64,000 bases of DNA, taken from assembly GCA_038231275.1 (NCBI GenBank), contig JBBRLQ010000007.1, positions 160,001-224,000 of the forward strand. Reading direction: 5' to 3'. A program made the translations under genes and the position numbers. The notes under the pieces are model-generated. The model did no database searches and was not told the origin of the DNA. It saw only the letters and a list, made by a program, of their open reading frames with translations. This document shows, piece by piece, positions 28,576 to 34,280 of this stretch (positions are counted from its first letter, which is position 1; every line of letters starts with the position of its first letter). The stretch is from Polyangiales bacterium (GTDB taxonomy: Bacteria > Myxococcota_A > Polyangia > Polyangiales > Polyangiaceae).

Positions 28576-31500
28576 TCAGGAGCAACCCATCGAGTTGCCG
28601 CAGTTGAGGCACTTGTAGCAAGCGCCGTTGCGAACCGTGATGTGACCGCAGACGTCGCACACCGGTGCGTCGCCCATCATCTCTTCGAGCTGCGCGTCGA
28701 GCGCGCTCGTGGCGCTCGCCGTCGTCGTCTCCATGCCGGGGAAGCTCGCGCTGTGCTTGCTCCCTTCGAGCCCCTCGCTCATGGACGCGGATCGTGCGAC
28801 CGCCTCCTTGGTGTGCGACAGCGCGGGCATCTCCATCGTCTTGCTCAGGTTGGAGAAGTCACGCGTCGAGCTCACGTCGCGGCCCGAGATGGGGGCCGCG
28901 TCGACCTCGCGGTACGGGGTCTTGGGCTGGTCGACCGACACGTCCTCGCCTTCCGGCTTCACGTGCGCCAAGTCGTAACGGTGCAGGTACTCGATGCCGA
29001 GCACGCGGAACAGGTAATCGACGATCGACGTCGCCAGCTTGACGTTCGGGTGTCCCTCGACCGAGCCCTGCGGCTCGAAGCGGGTGAACGTGAACTGCTC
29101 CACGTACGTCTCGAGCGGCACGCCGAACTGCAGGCCGATCGACACGCTCATCGCGAAGCAGTTCATGAGGCTGCGGAAGGCCGCACCCTCCTTGTGCATG
29201 TCGATGAAGATCTCGCCGAGCGTGCCGTCCTGGTACTCGCCGGTGCGGAGGAAGATCTTGTGACCGCCGACGCGTCCCTCCTGCGTGAAGCCGTGGCGCT
29301 TGCGCGGCAGGCGGACGCGGAGGCCGTGCGGGCGGGTGAGCGGGAGGACGAGCTGCTGCGTGTCCTGCTGCTCGGTCGTGATCGGGATCGGCGAGAGGCC
29401 GGGCATGAGCGTGTCGGCCTTGGCCTTGGCCGCCGCCGCGTCCTTCTTGTCCTTTGCGTCGTCCTTGCTCTCTTTGCTCGAGGTGGAGAGCGGCTGCGAC
29501 GCCTTGCATCCGTCGCGGTAAAGCGCGACCGCCTTGAGGCCGAGGCGCCAGCCCTCCTCGTAGACCTTCGCGATTTCTTCGACGGTGGCCTCGTTGGGGA
29601 GGTTGACCGTCTTGCTGATGGCGCCTGAGAGGAAGGGCTGCGTCGCGCCCATCATCTTCACGTGGCTCATCGGCGCGAGGTAGCGAACGCCCGTCTTTCC
29701 GCAGCGGTTCGCGCAATCGAAGATCGCGTAGTGCTCCGGCTTGAGGTACGGCGCGCCTTCGATCGTCATGTGACCGACGATGGCGTCGTTCGCCTCCTCG
29801 ATCGCCTCCTTCGAGAAGCCGAGGTGCGTGAGGAGGCTGAAGCCCTTCTTGCTCTTCTGCTCCTTGCTCACACCGAGGCGCTCGTACGCCTCTTCGCCCA
29901 AGACCCACGGCCCGAAGGCGTAGTCGATCTCGAACACGCCCGGGAGCGCCGCCTCGGCCTTCGCGAGATCCGCGTCGGTGAGACCCTTCTCCTTCAGCGA
30001 CCGGCGGCTCACGTGCGGCGAGCCGAGGAGCGTGTTGGTGCCTTGCACGAAGGCCACGATCTCCTGCACCTCGCGCGCCGAGTAGCCGAGACGCGTGAGC
30101 GCCTTCGGCACCGACTGGTTCACGATCTTGAAGTAGCCGCCGCCGGCCAGCTTCTTGAACTTCACGAGCGCGAAGTCCGGCTCGATGCCGGTCGTGTCGC
30201 AGTCCATGAGGAGGCCGATGGTGCCGGTCGGCGCGAGCACGGTGGCCTGCGCGTTCCTGTACCCGTGCTTCTCGCCGAGCTTGACCGCGTGATCCCAGTC
30301 CTCGCACGCCGCCTTGTAGAGGTCGGACGGGCAGAGATCGCGGTTGATCGCGCGCGCGGCTTCGCGGTGCATCCCCATGACGCGGAGCATCGAGTCGCGG
30401 TTCTTCGCGTAGCCGACGAACGGCGTCTTCGCGGCGGCCATCTCGGCGCTCGTCTTGTAGGCGTGGCCGCACATGATCGCGGTGAGCGCGCCGGCGATGG
30501 CGCGACCCTCGTCCGAGTCGTACGGCACGCCGAGCTGCATCAGCATGGAGCCGAGGTTGGCGTAGCCGAGGCCGAGCGGGCGGTAGTCGTGGCTGTTTTT
30601 GGCGATCTGCTTGGTCGGGTAGCTCGAGAGATCGACCAGGATCTCCTGCGCGATGAAGAACGTGCGGCAGGCGTGGCGGTAGCCGTCGACGTCGAACGTC
30701 TGGCTGCCGTCGTCTGCGTCCTTGAGGAATTTGGTCAGGTTGACCGACGACAGGTTGCACGCCGTGTCGTCGAGGAACATGTACTCGGAGCACGGGTTCG
30801 ACGCGTTGATCTTCCCGCTGTTCGGGCACGTGTGCCACTTGTTGATCGTCGAGTCGTACTGCACGCCCGGATCGGCGCACGACCACGCGGCCTCGGCGAC
30901 CATCGTCCACAGGTCTTTGGCTTCGAGGGTCTCGCAGACCTCGCCGCTCGTGCGCATGATTGTCTGCCACTTGCCGCCCGCGAGGACCGCCTTCATGAAG
31001 TCGTCGGTCACGCGGATCGAGTTGTTCGAGTTCTGCCCGCTGATCGTGTGGTAGGCGTCGCCGTTGAAGTCGCTCGAGTAGCCGCCGGCGATGAGCGCGT
31101 GCGCCTTCTTCTCTTCGCGCTGCTTCCACTGGATGAAGTCGACGATCTCCGGGTGGTCCATGTCGAGGCAGACCATCTTGGCGGCGCGGCGCGTGGTGCC
31201 GCCGCTCTTCGTCGCGCCGGCCGCGCGATCGAACACCTCGAGGAAGCTCATGAGACCCGAGCTGGTGCCGCCGCCCGAGAGCTTCTCCTGCTTGCCGCGG
31301 ATCGAGCTGAAGTTGGTGCCGGTGCCGGAGCCGTACTTGAAGAGGCGCGCCTCGAACTTGATGAGGTCGTAGATGCTCATCAGGTCGTCGTCGACGTGCT
31401 GGATGAAGCAGGCCGAGCACTGCGGGCGCTCGTACGCGTTCGCCGTCTCCGTCATGGTGGAGGCGGACTCGTTGCCGTCCCACGCCCAGTTGCCGCCCGA

Positions 31501-32106
31501 GCCCTCGATGCCGTAGCGGTGCCAGAGGCCGCAGTTGAACCACACCGGGCTGTTGAACGCGCCGTACTGGTGGACGAGCAAGAAGGAGAGCTCGGCCTCG
31601 AACGTCTCGGCGTCGGCCTTCGTGGCGAAGTACCCGCCGAACTGCTCGCCCGCTTCGCGGATCGTGTGCGCGATGCGGTACACGACCTCACTGACGCTCT
31701 TCTCGCCCTTCGCCTTGTCGCCGTGCAGGCCGGCCTTGCGGAAATACTTGGAGATGACGATGTCCGTCGCGAGCTGGCTCCAGCCGGCGGGGATCTCGGC
31801 GCCTTCCATCTTGAAGACGACCGAGCCGTCGGGGTTCGTGATGATGCTCGATCGGCGCTCGTACTGAACCTCCTCGAGCGGGTTCACGCCCGGCGCGGTG
31901 AAGTGGCGCGGCATCGCGACGCCGGCGTGCGCGCCCTGCTTCGCCACGCCGGCGTGAGCGGTCGGCTTGGACGCCGCGCTCTTCGTCTTCGTACTAGGGA
32001 GGCCCGGCTTTCCGCTCTGCTTGCGCGCTGCTGTTACCACGCTGTGTCCGTTCTTCTTGCCGCCGTCGACCGGCGAACGCACCCCGAAGTCCGATGATTG
32101 TGCCAT
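28576..32106 (-). CDS. nrdJ: Vitamin B12-dependent (class II) ribonucleotide reductase with C-terminal TSCPD-like domain and Zn ribbon
   Basis: FNSP, QCSACF, NPCSEY, ACNL, LAPTGTIG and ISKTVN motifs; CDVCG...CLNCG; AAGGAGG RBS before ATG 32106. Confidence 0.96.
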   Translation of the reverse strand: MAQSSDFGVRSPVDGGKKNGHSVVTAARKQSGKPGLPSTKTKSAASKPTAHAGVAKQGAHAGVAMPRHFTAPGVNPLEEVQYERRSSIITNPDGSVVFKMEGAEIPAGWSQLATDIVISKYFRKAGLHGDKAKGEKSVSEVVYRIAHTIREAGEQFGGYFATKADAETFEAELSFLLVHQYGAFNSPVWFNCGLWHRYGIEGSGGNWAWDGNESASTMTETANAYERPQCSACFIQHVDDDLMSIYDLIKFEARLFKYGSGTGTNFSSIRGKQEKLSGGGTSSGLMSFLEVFDRAAGATKSGGTTRRAAKMVCLDMDHPEIVDFIQWKQREEKKAHALIAGGYSSDFNGDAYHTISGQNSNNSIRVTDDFMKAVLAGGKWQTIMRTSGEVCETLEAKDLWTMVAEAAWSCADPGVQYDSTINKWHTCPNSGKINASNPCSEYMFLDDTACNLSSVNLTKFLKDADDGSQTFDVDGYRHACRTFFIAQEILVDLSSYPTKQIAKNSHDYRPLGLGYANLGSMLMQLGVPYDSDEGRAIAGALTAIMCGHAYKTSAEMAAAKTPFVGYAKNRDSMLRVMGMHREAARAINRDLCPSDLYKAACEDWDHAVKLGEKHGYRNAQATVLAPTGTIGLLMDCDTTGIEPDFALVKFKKLAGGGYFKIVNQSVPKALTRLGYSAREVQEIVAFVQGTNTLLGSPHVSRRSLKEKGLTDADLAKAEAALPGVFEIDYAFGPWVLGEEAYERLGVSKEQKSKKGFSLLTHLGFSKEAIEEANDAIVGHMTIEGAPYLKPEHYAIFDCANRCGKTGVRYLAPMSHVKMMGATQPFLSGAISKTVNLPNEATVEEIAKVYEEGWRLGLKAVALYRDGCKASQPLSTSSKESKDDAKDKKDAAAAKAKADTLMPGLSPIPITTEQQDTQQLVLPLTRPHGLRVRLPRKRHGFTQEGRVGGHKIFLRTGEYQDGTLGEIFIDMHKEGAAFRSLMNCFAMSVSIGLQFGVPLETYVEQFTFTRFEPQGSVEGHPNVKLATSIVDYLFRVLGIEYLHRYDLAHVKPEGEDVSVDQPKTPYREVDAAPISGRDVSSTRDFSNLSKTMEMPALSHTKEAVARSASMSEGLEGSKHSASFPGMETTTASATSALDAQLEEMMGDAPVCDVCGHITVRNGACYKCLNCGNSMGCS

Positions 32107-32550
32107 AGCCGCCTCCTTCTTCATCACGCGCTTGAGCCCGCTCGAGCTCCGGCGCCGCTGCCGTGCTCGAGACAAAAAAATCCCCGCCCCTCACGGACCA
32201 GGCCATGGGGGGTTGCCGTCACCCGTCTCGTCTCGTCTGTGGAGAACTTGGGGGGCGATCGCCGACGTCCCGAAGGACCGCCCCGTTTTGCCTTGCTCCG
32301 GCTCCCGCCTCGTTCCCACTCCGCCCCCTCCTCTCGAGAAGAGCAGGGAGTCAGGTGACGCCAGCGTTCATCCGTACAGGCTTCCGTATCTCAGCTTGAA
32401 CGTGCGTTCAGGTTCGCCATCTCCCAATCACTTGCCCGCCACTCGCCTGCCACTCGGCCGCCCTCGTACCGATGGGTGCAGGCTGCATGCTTGCACCTTC
32501 CACCCATCGTCCGCCGGCTGCCGCGAGAGATTCGCGAACGACAGCGGAAG
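32107..32550 (-). promoter_or_regulatory. Long structured 5' leader of nrdJ (candidate cis-regulatory RNA)
   Basis: Several hairpins, including GUCC-UUCG-GGAC nested in GGGGCG/CGCCCC (32251-32284) and a stem plus U7 tract (32174-32211). Confidence 0.5.
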
Positions 32551-32552
32551 CC

Positions 32553-32584
32553 AGCATATAACCCCAAGATCTAGTAGCTGTCCA
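32553..32584 (-). promoter_or_regulatory. Sigma70-type promoter of nrdJ
   Basis: Minus strand TGGACA-N17-TTATATGCT. Confidence 0.6.
32562..32577. promoter_or_regulatory. NrdR box 1
   Basis: CCCCAAGATCTAGTAG fits consensus acaCwAtATaTwGtgt; lies in the promoter spacer upstream of an RNR gene. Confidence 0.78.
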
Positions 32585-32593
32585 GGAATATGG

Positions 32594-32609
32594 ATACTCC
32601 ATCTCGTAC
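32594..32609. promoter_or_regulatory. NrdR box 2
   Basis: ATACTCCATCTCGTAC, weaker match, 32 bp from box 1 (three helical turns, typical of tandem NrdR boxes). Confidence 0.6.
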
Positions 32610-32727
32610 CCACACTGTGAGGCAGTGGGTCCCATGGACGACAGATCTCACACCTCTTGTGTAAGCATTTGGGATCCTTGGGATCACTGAACCGCTCGAA
32701 CAGCCCTGAACGGAGGTTAGGCCCAAG

Positions 32728-32824
32728 TGTTCCACAAGCTCAGCACAACGTAGGGGGCGGTTGTTCAGGAGTTCTCCACGGCCTTACCCACAACTTTCGA
32801 GCGCGAATCGAGGGGTGTGGAAAA
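32728..32824. promoter_or_regulatory. Cluster of DnaA-box-like 9-mers
   Basis: TGTTCCACA (32728), TTCTCCACG (32772), TTACCCACA (32784) and TGTGGAAAA = rc TTTTCCACA (32816), versus TTWTNCACA. Confidence 0.55.
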
Positions 32825-32958
32825 GAAAAGCGACAAGCGAACGCCGCGGCAGGCGTCGTCACGTGCTCGCGGACACCTTGGCTCGGATGCGGCTTCAGAG
32901 ATCGATCGGGCCAGCCGTTGGTGGAGTTGGAGCACCGCTCCTTAAAGAAAGGCTCCCT

Positions 32959-33204
32959 ATGCGATTGGTTCTTCGGACTGCGGGCGCGTGGGCGCTCGTC
33001 GCGATGACACTCGTTGGATGCAACGGTTCGTCTGGAAAAAACGCCGATGTTGGCGCCTCGGGCGCGACGGGTGCCTCGAGCGGAGGCGGCACGAGCGGCG
33101 TCGGATCGAGCGGATCCGGAGGACCCGGCGGAACCAGCGGAACCAGCGGAACCGGCGGCCAACGCGGCACCGGCACCGTGAAGCTCACCCTCAAGGTCAA
33201 GTAG
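32959..33204 (+). CDS. Small Gly/Ser/Thr-rich lipoprotein
   Basis: AAAGG RBS; lipobox LVGC; ends GTVKLTLKVK just before the GAGGAG RBS of the next gene. Confidence 0.6.
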   Translation: MRLVLRTAGAWALVAMTLVGCNGSSGKNADVGASGATGASSGGGTSGVGSSGSGGPGGTSGTSGTGGQRGTGTVKLTLKVK

Positions 33205-33216
33205 AGGAGCCGTACG

Positions 33217-34280
33217 ATGAAAGCTCGTTTCACGCGTTGGGGTTTTCGTGCAGGGTTCGCGCTCCTCGCAGCGCTCACGCCGGCCACGCTGGTGTACGGC
33301 GCCACGGGGGAGGTCAGCTTCACGCCGACGGGCTTCAAGGTCTCGATCATGAGGATCGCAATCGCGGCGCAGTCCGACGGCGGGCAGCCGACGTCCGAGC
33401 AGGTCCTCTACACGTGCAAGGGAACGACCGAAGCCGAGTGCCTCGTCGACGTGACGAACCAAGCGGAGCTCGACGCGATCACTGCGCAAGCCGCCGGTGT
33501 CGCCGTACAGGTCGGGAGCTACGACGTGATCTCGCTGAACATGTGCGCGCCCGGATCGGGCGGCACGACGCGCGTACCCGGATTCGTCCGCGGAGCGTTC
33601 TTCGTCCCCAGCGAAGGCAAGACGTACGCGACCGATCCCGACGCGGCCAACGTCACCGGGCTCAAAGAGGTCCCCGATCTCGCGGACGCGGGCGCCGAGT
33701 TCACCGCGATCGGCAACTGGTCGTGCAACACGAAGACGGTCCTCCTCCGCACGCCCATCGTCGTCGCGAGCGGCGCCATCGCGCCTCTCACCGTGGTCGT
33801 CGACGCGAAGGTCATCGCGTTCTCCACCTCGCACGTCTCCCCGGGGATGGGCGGATGCCGCGGAAACGCGAACGGGCAAGGGCGCGGGCTCTGCGTGTCG
33901 TACCCGTCCATCTTTCCGCTGGTCAGTGACGACGACGCCGAGCTCGATCGCTTCCTCATCGCGCACCACCGAACGGATCCCGACGCGACGACGCGGGCGA
34001 GCCGCTCACCGCGTTCGTCCGCCCCTTCTTCAGCGAGACGTCCGCGCAGATCAGCCAGAGCGTCGTCATGGACCCCGTCTTCGGCGGACCGGGCTACATG
34101 GGCGAGACGATCGTCCCGAGCTTCCACGACGTGGGCGACGCGTCCGTGAGCTTCATCACCGGCGGCAGCCTCGACGAAGGGGCCATCTTCCGGCACTTCG
34201 AGCTGAGGGATCACAAAGGAACGGTCGACACGTACGACGCAGGATCGTGGCGCTACCACGCCGCGCCGCTCGTGCCCTGA
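33217..34280 (+). pseudogene. Exported hypothetical protein interrupted by a frameshift near 33985
   Basis: Frame 1 reads well to ...HHRTDPDA, then becomes Arg/Ser-rich; frame 3 continues DDAGEPLTAFVRPFF...HAAPLVP* with high GC3. Confidence 0.7.

What the first reader, a model, noticed from the sequence alone, without database searches (positions are those of the whole stretch)
32107..32550. ~440-nt structured nrdJ leader ending in a terminator-like element: candidate new riboswitch or attenuator
Seen (minus strand): the promoter and NrdR boxes place the start near 32548, about 440 nt before the ATG. The leader has competing pairings at 32470-32509 (CGATGGGTG/CACCCATCG versus GGTGCAGGC/GCTTGCACC), a long imperfect hairpin at 32346-32425, a cUUCGg tetraloop nested in GGGGCG/CGCCCC (32251-32284), and a GC stem plus U7 about 70 nt before the ATG. 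No credible ORF lies here. Known: cUUCGg marks stable RNA hairpins, and an orphan 'nrdJ' RNA motif is catalogued in Proteobacteria. I could not match that motif or a cobalamin riboswitch by eye. Inference: a second, RNA-level control on dNTP synthesis, or an sRNA released by premature termination.
Basis: partly seen in the sequence, partly recalled or inferred. Interest (0 to 1): 0.75.

Follow-up and report, generated by a model that had tools for sequence, protein, structure and literature searches.

The report
Long regulatory leader before nrdJ
The only ribonucleotide reductase gene of this myxobacterium-type genome sits behind a long untranslated leader that holds a repressor-controlled promoter, a DNA-damage (LexA-type) operator, a conserved RNA-like core matching no catalogued RNA family and a terminator-like stop signal, but nothing yet shows that it is a riboswitch.

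Summary
The gene is class II RNR nrdJ, the only RNR large subunit found in the genome. A conserved promoter with NrdR boxes lies about 440 nt before the ATG; this start site is inferred. No Rfam family matches, cobalamin included.

The "competing pairings" hairpin is strong in this sequence but missing in relatives. The cUUCGg register is not kept in the same-genus genome G001. The "long imperfect hairpin" is better read as a 16/17 match to the Myxococcus LexA (SOS) box, which recurs in nrdJ leaders of five lineages.

Kept in G001 and in three metagenomic relatives is a ~150-nt core (32388-32237). Single-base indels rule out coding, and a variable-length hairpin sits between invariant blocks. 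G001 also keeps the hairpin+U7.

Covariation (two sequences) and folding energies are not decisive. The core occurs in 2 of 383 family genomes. No RNA data exist.

Best reading: a composite control region made of an NrdR operator, a LexA-type operator and a genus-specific attenuator RNA. A true riboswitch is possible but unlikely. An earlier scan note (e1-886354) reported a terminator hairpin before nrdJ in another phylum.

The parts
32687..32711 (-). Three GTTCAG/GTTCGA direct repeats upstream of the promoter, about 10 bp apart
   Evidence: Read. Similar paired GTTCAG repeats lie upstream of the NrdR boxes in the relatives printed. GTTCAG repeats also flank the -10 of the lexA and recN promoters of this genome. 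Function not tested.
32594..32609 (-). Weak NrdR box 1
   Evidence: It starts 32 nt before box 2, as in relatives, where the spacing is 31-33 nt. It matches 9 of 14 specified positions by my own count. It is nearly identical in G001, and L090 has a better box beginning with the same 9 letters.
32556..32584 (-). Promoter: -35 TGGACA (32584-32579); NrdR box 2 (32577-32562) filling the 17-nt spacer; -10 TTATAT (32561-32556). Inferred start about 32549.
   Evidence: identical in G001; box score 13 of 14; tandem boxes found in most of 39 relatives. An NrdR gene is present in the genome. The tool's sigma-70 scan found no site, so the promoter is inferred.
32535..32552 (-). Conserved first bases of the transcript, complementary to the start of the core (CUUCCG with CGGAAG) and to 32309-32302
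   Evidence: Identical in G001. The 8-bp pairing 32550-32543 with 32309-32302 is kept in both sequences. No differences are listed at 32535-32552 in X4 (a partial list).
32466..32512 (-).
   Evidence: Free energy -24.7 kcal/mol, z -4.7. Deleted in G001. Lies inside the stretch replaced by unlike letters in X5 and partly in X4.
32396..32412 (.). LexA (SOS) box-like palindrome at about +136 of the leader: CTGAAC-N4-GTTCAA on the gene strand
   Evidence: The plus strand matches 16 of 17 positions of the M. xanthus SOS box consensus quoted in PMC9705874. It is one of 5 such sites in the genome; another lies in the recA promoter spacer. It is kept in G001 (14/17). A match of 15/17 or better occurs in 17 of 39 nrdJ leaders and in 0 of 39 coding controls.
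32237..32388 (-). Conserved non-coding core of about 150 nt. It has invariant blocks (32388-32359, about 32313-32289, 32265-32237), a hairpin of variable length (about 32354-32314) and a second hairpin (32284-32251). The proposed closing helix pairs 32379-32366 with 32247-32237.
   Evidence: Aligned at 80% or more in G001 and in contigs of X3, X4 and X5, while both flanks are replaced there. Indels of 1-2 nt are present. The RNAalifold model has 48 pairs, 3 changed on both sides, 7 on one side and 0 broken. It is single-copy in the genome.
32174..32212 (-). Terminator-like element: a C-run/G-run hairpin (proximal form 32202-32182), then A, then U7 (32180-32174)
   Evidence: G001 keeps it, with a more stable hairpin (-24.2 kcal/mol, z -2.9) and the identical 17-nt block GGGGA-U7-GUCUC.
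32104..32116 (-). Shine-Dalgarno GGAGG (32116-32112) and ATG (32106-32104) of nrdJ
   Evidence: Identical in G001. Complementary to the C-rich 3' block of the core in the RNAalifold model.
28576..32106 (-). nrdJ, class II (B12-dependent) ribonucleotide reductase, 1176 aa
   Evidence: Pfam matches. It is the only Ribonuc_red_lgC gene found in the genome, and no NrdB was found; the genome is 94% complete.

Best explanation
The stretch between the nrdJ promoter and the ATG is a composite control region for the cell's only RNR.

1. Shown by sequence and comparison: a promoter overlapped by NrdR boxes sits about 440 nt upstream.
2. Inferred: a LexA-type operator lies inside the transcribed leader, at about +136. 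There it could block or slow RNA polymerase until DNA damage removes LexA.
3. Inferred: the RNA folds into a genus-specific domain of about 150 nt. Its two invariant ends pair with each other, and alternatively with the arms of a downstream hairpin+U7.
4. Inferred: that terminator stops part of the transcripts 67 nt before the ATG. Read-through into nrdJ therefore depends on the state of the core.

The input that sets that state (a protein, a small RNA, a metabolite or the speed of transcription) is unknown.
For: - Gene identity and sole-RNR status.
- Promoter and NrdR boxes are identical in G001. Tandem boxes lie 125-442 nt before the ATG in 39 related loci. An NrdR gene is present.
- SOS box: 16/17 to the consensus in PMC9705874. 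Five such sites exist genome-wide, one of them in the recA promoter. In nrdJ leaders, 17 of 39 score 15/17 or better against 0 of 39 coding controls, always in the same orientation and at +60 to +136.
- Core: kept in 4 relatives while both flanks are replaced. It is non-coding, as shown by 1-2-nt indels and the missing start codon in G001. A hairpin of variable length between invariant blocks suits RNA better than phased DNA sites. All 48 model pairs hold in both sequences, 3 of them with changes on both sides.
- Terminator; kept in G001. The strands 32376-32370 and 32249-32242 of the core are complementary to terminator strands 32198-32192 and 32185-32178 in both genomes.
- A sister lineage of 14 leaders has its own conserved fold, with 9 of 55 pairs changed on both sides.
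- Sense-strand T runs are frequent in these leaders: 16 of 39, against 3 of 39 with A runs.
Against: - There is no transcript evidence of any kind. No RNA run holds the locus.
- The tool's promoter scan finds no sigma-70 site.
- Folding energies of the leader and of the core are ordinary: z -1.3, -0.5 and +0.5.
- The covariation test is not significant (62 of 500 shuffles as good), and the structure was derived from the same two sequences.
- The hairpin that scores best thermodynamically leaves 5-6 nt between stem and U-run. Only a weaker 7-bp form abuts the U-run.
- In X3 the terminator stretch does not align at 80%.
- With a strict terminator definition, only 9 of 39 leaders carry one, against 4 of 39 coding controls.
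- The other three genome-wide SOS-box matches are not beside recognisable repair genes.
- In the sister lineage the box lies within a predicted RNA helix, so an RNA role for it is not excluded.
Confidence: 0.45

Rival explanations
1. New riboswitch. The 150-nt core is a ligand-binding aptamer, for example for a deoxynucleotide, a nucleotide alarm signal or adenosylcobalamin. Ligand binding fixes the closing helix and so decides whether the terminator forms.
For: The architecture resembles an aptamer plus expression platform: invariant junction blocks, hairpins of variable length, and a closing helix whose strands can also pair with the terminator. No known family matches, so it would be new.
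Against: The core occurs in 2 of 383 family genomes. A covariance model built from it finds nothing with E below 0.5 in 99 related loci. Other genera have unrelated leader sequences before the same gene. Covariation is not significant. There is no second copy before any other gene.
Confidence: 0.13
2. No RNA-level control. The conserved blocks are DNA sites (operators, or a second promoter) for LexA, NrdR or other proteins. The hairpin+U7 is only a pause or a weak constitutive terminator. The long leader merely spaces these sites.
For: One block is a convincing LexA-type box. GTTCAG repeats also lie upstream. Folding energies and covariation give no positive support for RNA structure.
Against: The spacing between the invariant blocks varies by 5-30 nt among close relatives, which is awkward for cooperating DNA sites. 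No promoter-like hexamers were found inside the leader. The two outer invariant blocks are mutually complementary over 11 pairs. The U7 block is strictly conserved in G001.
Confidence: 0.22
3. A small RNA derived from the 5' UTR. Transcription from the NrdR promoter mostly ends at U7, releasing a stable RNA of about 370 nt that acts in trans. This can coexist with attenuation.
For: A terminator-like element lies well before the ATG and is kept in G001. The core is conserved.
Against: No expression data exist. No target or seed is evident. It matches no sRNA family.
Confidence: 0.08
4. Attenuation through a leader peptide. A 42-codon uORF (GUG at 32319, stop at 32193-32191 inside the terminator hairpin) is translated, and the ribosome hinders terminator folding.
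For: A GGAGG lies 6 nt before the GUG, and the stop codon lies in the hairpin.
Against: G001 has no start codon in that frame. X4 carries +1 insertions inside it. The identical blocks show no third-position changes.
Confidence: 0.03

Closest known systems
NrdR operators of ribonucleotide reductase promoters (tandem 16-bp NrdR boxes; Rodionov and Gelfand 2005, recalled, not read here)
   Same: Two palindrome-like 16-bp boxes, 32 nt apart start to start, overlap the -35/-10 region of an nrd gene. An NrdR gene is present.
   Different: Box 1 is weak here (9 of 14). The promoter lies unusually far from the gene, about 440 nt here and 125-442 nt in relatives.
Myxococcus xanthus SOS box CTRHAMRYBYGTTCAGS, bound by LexA at lexA and recA2 (PMC9705874, passages read)
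   Same: A 16/17 match. The same motif lies in the recA promoter spacer of this genome.
   Different: It lies at about +136 inside the transcribed leader, not over a promoter, and reads on the strand opposite to the gene. That paper does not mention nrd genes: 0 occurrences of 'nrd' or 'ribonucleotide'.
Terminator-based attenuators and riboswitch expression platforms. Examples are the B12 riboswitch before class I nrd genes in Streptomyces and the 2'-dG riboswitch before RNR genes in Mesoplasma (both recalled, not read here).
   Same: A conserved structured domain is followed by a hairpin+U-run before an RNR gene, with strands that could pair alternatively.
   Different: It matches no cobalamin, purine/2'-dG or other Rfam model. 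It is confined to one genus. No ligand or switching has been shown.

Membership tests
   0 matches at gathering score in the whole window. At E up to 10 over 31800-33000 there were only 6 chance-level miRNA/snoRNA hits, best E 0.096, none in the core. A sister-lineage leader (L011) also gave nothing relevant.
Riboswitch (generic) | Conserved aptamer with covarying helices | tested here: inconclusive
   48 pairs all hold in window and G001, 3 with changes on both sides. However, 62 of 500 shuffles do as well, and the structure came from the same two sequences.
Riboswitch (generic) | Aptamer conserved across distant taxa or before several genes | tested here: not met
   An invariant 25-mer of the core, with up to 3 mismatches, occurs in 2 of 383 family genomes. 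The covariance model has no hit with E below 0.5 in 99 loci. It is single-copy in its own genome.
Riboswitch (generic) | Direct ligand binding that changes structure | not testable with these tools
   Needs in-line probing or in-vitro transcription.
Intrinsic terminator / transcription attenuator | G+C-rich hairpin directly followed by a U-run, on the sense strand between promoter and start codon | tested here: met
   Tool hit at 32197-32183 plus tail. A 7-bp form at 32202-32182 ends 1 nt before U7. Kept in G001. The more stable fold leaves a 5-6-nt gap.
Intrinsic terminator / transcription attenuator | Mutually exclusive antiterminator pairing | tested here: inconclusive
   Conserved complementarities between core strands and terminator strands exist, but such 7-8-bp matches are easy to find in G+C-rich sequence. 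No test of exclusivity was made.
Intrinsic terminator / transcription attenuator | RNA 3' ends at the U-run and conditional read-through | not testable with these tools
   No RNA run holds the locus.
NrdR operator | Tandem 16-bp boxes about three helical turns apart at an nrd promoter, with NrdR encoded in the genome | tested here: met
   Box 2 scores 13 of 14, box 1 scores 9 of 14, and they are 32 nt apart. The same layout is seen in relatives. NrdR (TIGR00244) is present at 198 bits. The consensus used was my own degenerate form, recalled.
LexA / SOS box, Myxococcus type | Match to CTRHAMRYBYGTTCAGS and presence of the motif at core SOS genes of the same genome | tested here: met
   16/17 at 32396-32412. 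It is one of 5 such sites in 9.3 Mb, another being in the recA promoter spacer. recN carries a 15/17 site over its start. A lexA gene is present.
LexA / SOS box, Myxococcus type | Operator overlaps the promoter of the regulated gene | tested here: not met
   The box lies about 136 nt downstream of the inferred start, and at +60 to +136 in relatives. No promoter-like site is nearby.
LexA / SOS box, Myxococcus type | LexA binding and damage induction | not testable with these tools
   Needs a gel shift and expression assays.

The most novel reading that the evidence does not exclude
The 150-nt core is the aptamer of a new, narrowly distributed riboswitch. It reads a nucleotide-pool or cofactor signal and gates the cell's only ribonucleotide reductase by termination. 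It is layered on NrdR repression and on a LexA roadblock inside the same leader. The unrelated structured leaders of sister genera would then be independent solutions to the same control problem.
Probability: 0.12. Interest if true: 0.8.

Novelty: new member of a known kind. Interest (0 to 1): 0.4.

Why it matters
nrdJ appears to be this organism's only route to deoxynucleotides, so its control sets the pace of replication and repair.

If the reading holds, three control layers are stacked on one gene. NrdR senses the nucleotide pool at the promoter. A LexA-type operator acts inside the transcribed region. An RNA attenuator follows.

A LexA site placed at +60 to +136 in five lineages of this family would be an unusual, testable case of SOS control by roadblock, and it would link DNA damage directly to dNTP supply.

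The conserved core is a concrete candidate, 150 nt long, for structure probing. As a riboswitch candidate it is weak. That is worth knowing before bench time is spent on ligand screens.

Tried and rejected
- Rfam at gathering score and at E up to 10: nothing relevant.
- DNA search of the leader in 61 relatives found only G001, plus a 38-nt match elsewhere in G031. G002, of the same genus, has no nrdJ N-terminus assembled.
- blastn and nhmmer of the leader against 157 related loci found only promoter and start-codon similarity.
- The covariance model of the core found no credible hit. The best-looking local similarity, in L156, lies inside a coding region.
- Sequencing runs: no RNA holder is listed, so nothing can be said about expression.
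- Laying contigs of X2-X5 gave the limits of conservation but not full sequences, and the tables are cut: 107 differences and 43 indels are not shown. Parts of the stretch without cover in these runs are not evidence.
- Genome-wide hairpin energy upstream of T7 runs did not separate them from random sequence, so it was dropped as a terminator test.
- A palindromic CTGAAC-N4-GTTCAG search gave 5 sites with at most 1 mismatch, including recN.
- The other three 16/17 SOS-box sites lie beside FHA, glutathione synthetase, phosphoesterase, DUF4388-TPR or unannotated genes. That does not support an SOS role for those sites.
- The leader-peptide idea was rejected.
- Literature: two searches for nrdJ leader or riboswitch, and for LexA control of nrd genes, listed nothing on point (search listings only). 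An absence in print is claimed for those searches only.
- ORFs upstream of the promoter (32740-33969 on the minus strand and three overlapping ones) have no Pfam match.

Full report
WHAT IS THERE

The ORF at 28576-32106 (minus strand) is a class II, B12-dependent ribonucleotide reductase (Ribonuc_red_lgC 1e-136, Ribonuc_red_2_N, TSCPD). In the 94%-complete genome it is the only Ribonuc_red_lgC gene, and no class I small subunit was found.

Upstream of it, on the same strand, lie a -35 (32584-32579), a 16-bp NrdR-type box filling the 17-nt spacer (32577-32562) and a -10 (32561-32556). A weaker box starts 32 nt further up. The stretch 32634-32535 is almost identical in the one other assembled genome of the genus that has this locus, G001.

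The same layout is seen in 39 related loci from genomes and metagenomes: tandem boxes 31-33 nt apart, far from the gene. The inferred leaders there are 125-442 nt long. An NrdR gene is present. The start near 32549 is therefore reasonable but inferred. The tool's sigma-70 scan calls nothing here, and no RNA run holds the locus.

- The whole leader folds no better than shuffles (z -1.3).
- The 32466-32512 hairpin is strong (z -4.7), but it is deleted in G001. It also lies in the part that metagenomic relatives replace with unlike sequence.
- The proposed long hairpin at 32346-32425 is not recovered.
- The GGGGCG/CGCCCC stem is kept in G001, but the inner hairpin is kept in a UCGG/UCGG register rather than the cUUCGg one.
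- The hairpin+U7 is real, ends 67 nt before the ATG, and is kept in G001 with an identical 17-nt block around the U-run.
- T runs of 7 or more are rare in this 69% G+C genome: 180 on both strands.
- No Rfam family matches at gathering score or at E up to 10.

WHAT IS CONSERVED

Contigs from three other public runs (X3, X4, X5), laid at 80% likeness or more, all cover 32237-32388. The stretches on either side of it do not align:
- In X4, 74 unlike letters stand in place of 104 on the upstream side.
- In X5, 122 unlike letters stand in place of 143 on the upstream side.
- In X3, 71 unlike letters stand in place of 83 on the downstream side.

G001 shows the same pattern. Within this core, three blocks show no listed difference in any relative. 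Most substitutions and all the 1-2-nt indels fall in one hairpin (about 32354-32314) and in a short A-rich linker. The core is therefore under constraint and is not coding.

The only uORF with a Shine-Dalgarno-like site has no start codon in G001.

RNAalifold on window plus G001 pairs the two outer invariant blocks into an 11-pair closing helix (32379-32366 with 32247-32237). It gives 48 pairs in all. All hold in both sequences, 3 with changes on both sides and 7 with changes on one side.

This is not statistically decisive. In the shuffle control, 62 of 500 shuffles do as well. The structure was derived from the same two sequences. Minimum free energies are ordinary, with z -0.5 and +0.5.

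The core is confined to the genus:
- An invariant 25-mer, with up to 3 mismatches, occurs in 2 of 383 family genomes.
- A covariance model finds nothing credible in 99 related loci.
- There is no second copy in the genome.

A DNA OPERATOR INSIDE THE LEADER

On the plus strand it matches 16 of 17 positions of the M. xanthus SOS box, whose consensus and LexA gel shifts are described in PMC9705874 (passages read).

With an exact GTTCAG half-site, only five 16/17 sites exist in 9.3 Mb. One of them lies in the spacer of the recA promoter. recN carries a 15/17 site over its start, and the lexA promoter has two GTTCAG repeats.

Among 39 nrdJ leaders, 17 have a match of 15/17 or better, against 0 of 39 coding segments of equal length. 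These 17 fall into five leader lineages. All are in the same orientation, at +60 to +136 from the inferred start. That control used a first-order resampling, not an exact dinucleotide shuffle.

Sequence rather than pairing is what is conserved across lineages whose leaders are otherwise unalignable. That points to a protein site on DNA.

Caveats: the other three genomic sites are not beside repair genes. In a sister lineage the box also lies in a predicted RNA helix.

CONTEXT FROM RELATIVES

A sister lineage of 14 leaders of about 240 nt has its own conserved fold: 55 predicted pairs, 9 with changes on both sides. Structured nrdJ leaders are therefore not peculiar to this genus, although the sequences are unrelated.

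Sense-strand T runs of 5 or more occur in 16 of 39 leaders, against A runs in 3 of 39. Several lie 50-91 nt before the ATG and follow a G-rich arm. With a strict perfect-stem definition, however, only 9 of 39 leaders carry a terminator, against 1 of 39 on the antisense strand and 4 of 39 in coding controls. A terminator is therefore not a general feature.

HOW IT MOST LIKELY WORKS

NrdR sets initiation. A LexA-type protein bound at about +136 may hinder elongation until DNA damage removes it. The transcript then folds into the core.

Two strands of the core can pair either with each other or with the arms of the terminator. These complementarities (32376-32370 with 32198-32192, and 32249-32242 with 32185-32178) are kept in both genomes. 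The share of polymerases that pass U7 into nrdJ would therefore depend on the state of the core. The C-rich 3' block of the core is also complementary to the Shine-Dalgarno and start region. All of these steps are inferred.

A metabolite-sensing riboswitch is not excluded. It is made unlikely by the narrow distribution and by the lack of any shared core among genera that regulate the same gene.

VERDICT

The finding is real as a conserved, uncatalogued leader element with a terminator-like end. It is only partly as described. As a riboswitch candidate it is weak.

I did not test that note.

Noticed in passing
window 32687-32711, and the relatives printed (for example L012 about 1944-1970, L009 about 1516-1541): Two or three direct GTTCAG repeats lie 50-150 nt upstream of the NrdR boxes in most related nrdJ loci. 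In this genome's lexA and recN promoters a GTTCAG(G) sits directly before the -10. nrdJ may therefore also have an upstream, damage-controlled promoter or a looping partner for the leader box.
   Followed up: partly
L011, L106, L109, L111, L113, L115-L117, L120, L121, L123, L158, L104, L112 (alignment A3): A sister lineage has a conserved nrdJ leader of about 240 nt. Its 5' CCUCUGCUC strand can pair either with a downstream GAGCAGAG or with the Shine-Dalgarno GAGGAGG, which resembles a translational switch.
   Followed up: partly
G000 C18:106705 (locus L082), recA promoter: The -35/-10 spacer of one of the two recA genes holds a 16/17 SOS box. The second recA (C9) shows none in the 460 nt printed. 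This recalls the split recA1/recA2 regulation described for M. xanthus.
   Followed up: no
window 32830-32847, minus strand: A terminator-like hairpin with a T-rich tail lies inside the mechanical ORF 32740-33969. The real upstream gene therefore probably ends before 32847. None of the overlapping ORFs has a Pfam match.
   Followed up: no
window 32286-32293 with 32170-32177: The U-run plus GUCU is complementary over 8 bp to AGGCAAAA in the core. G001 has an A-to-G change that keeps the pairing as G-U. This could be a long-range contact or chance.
   Followed up: no
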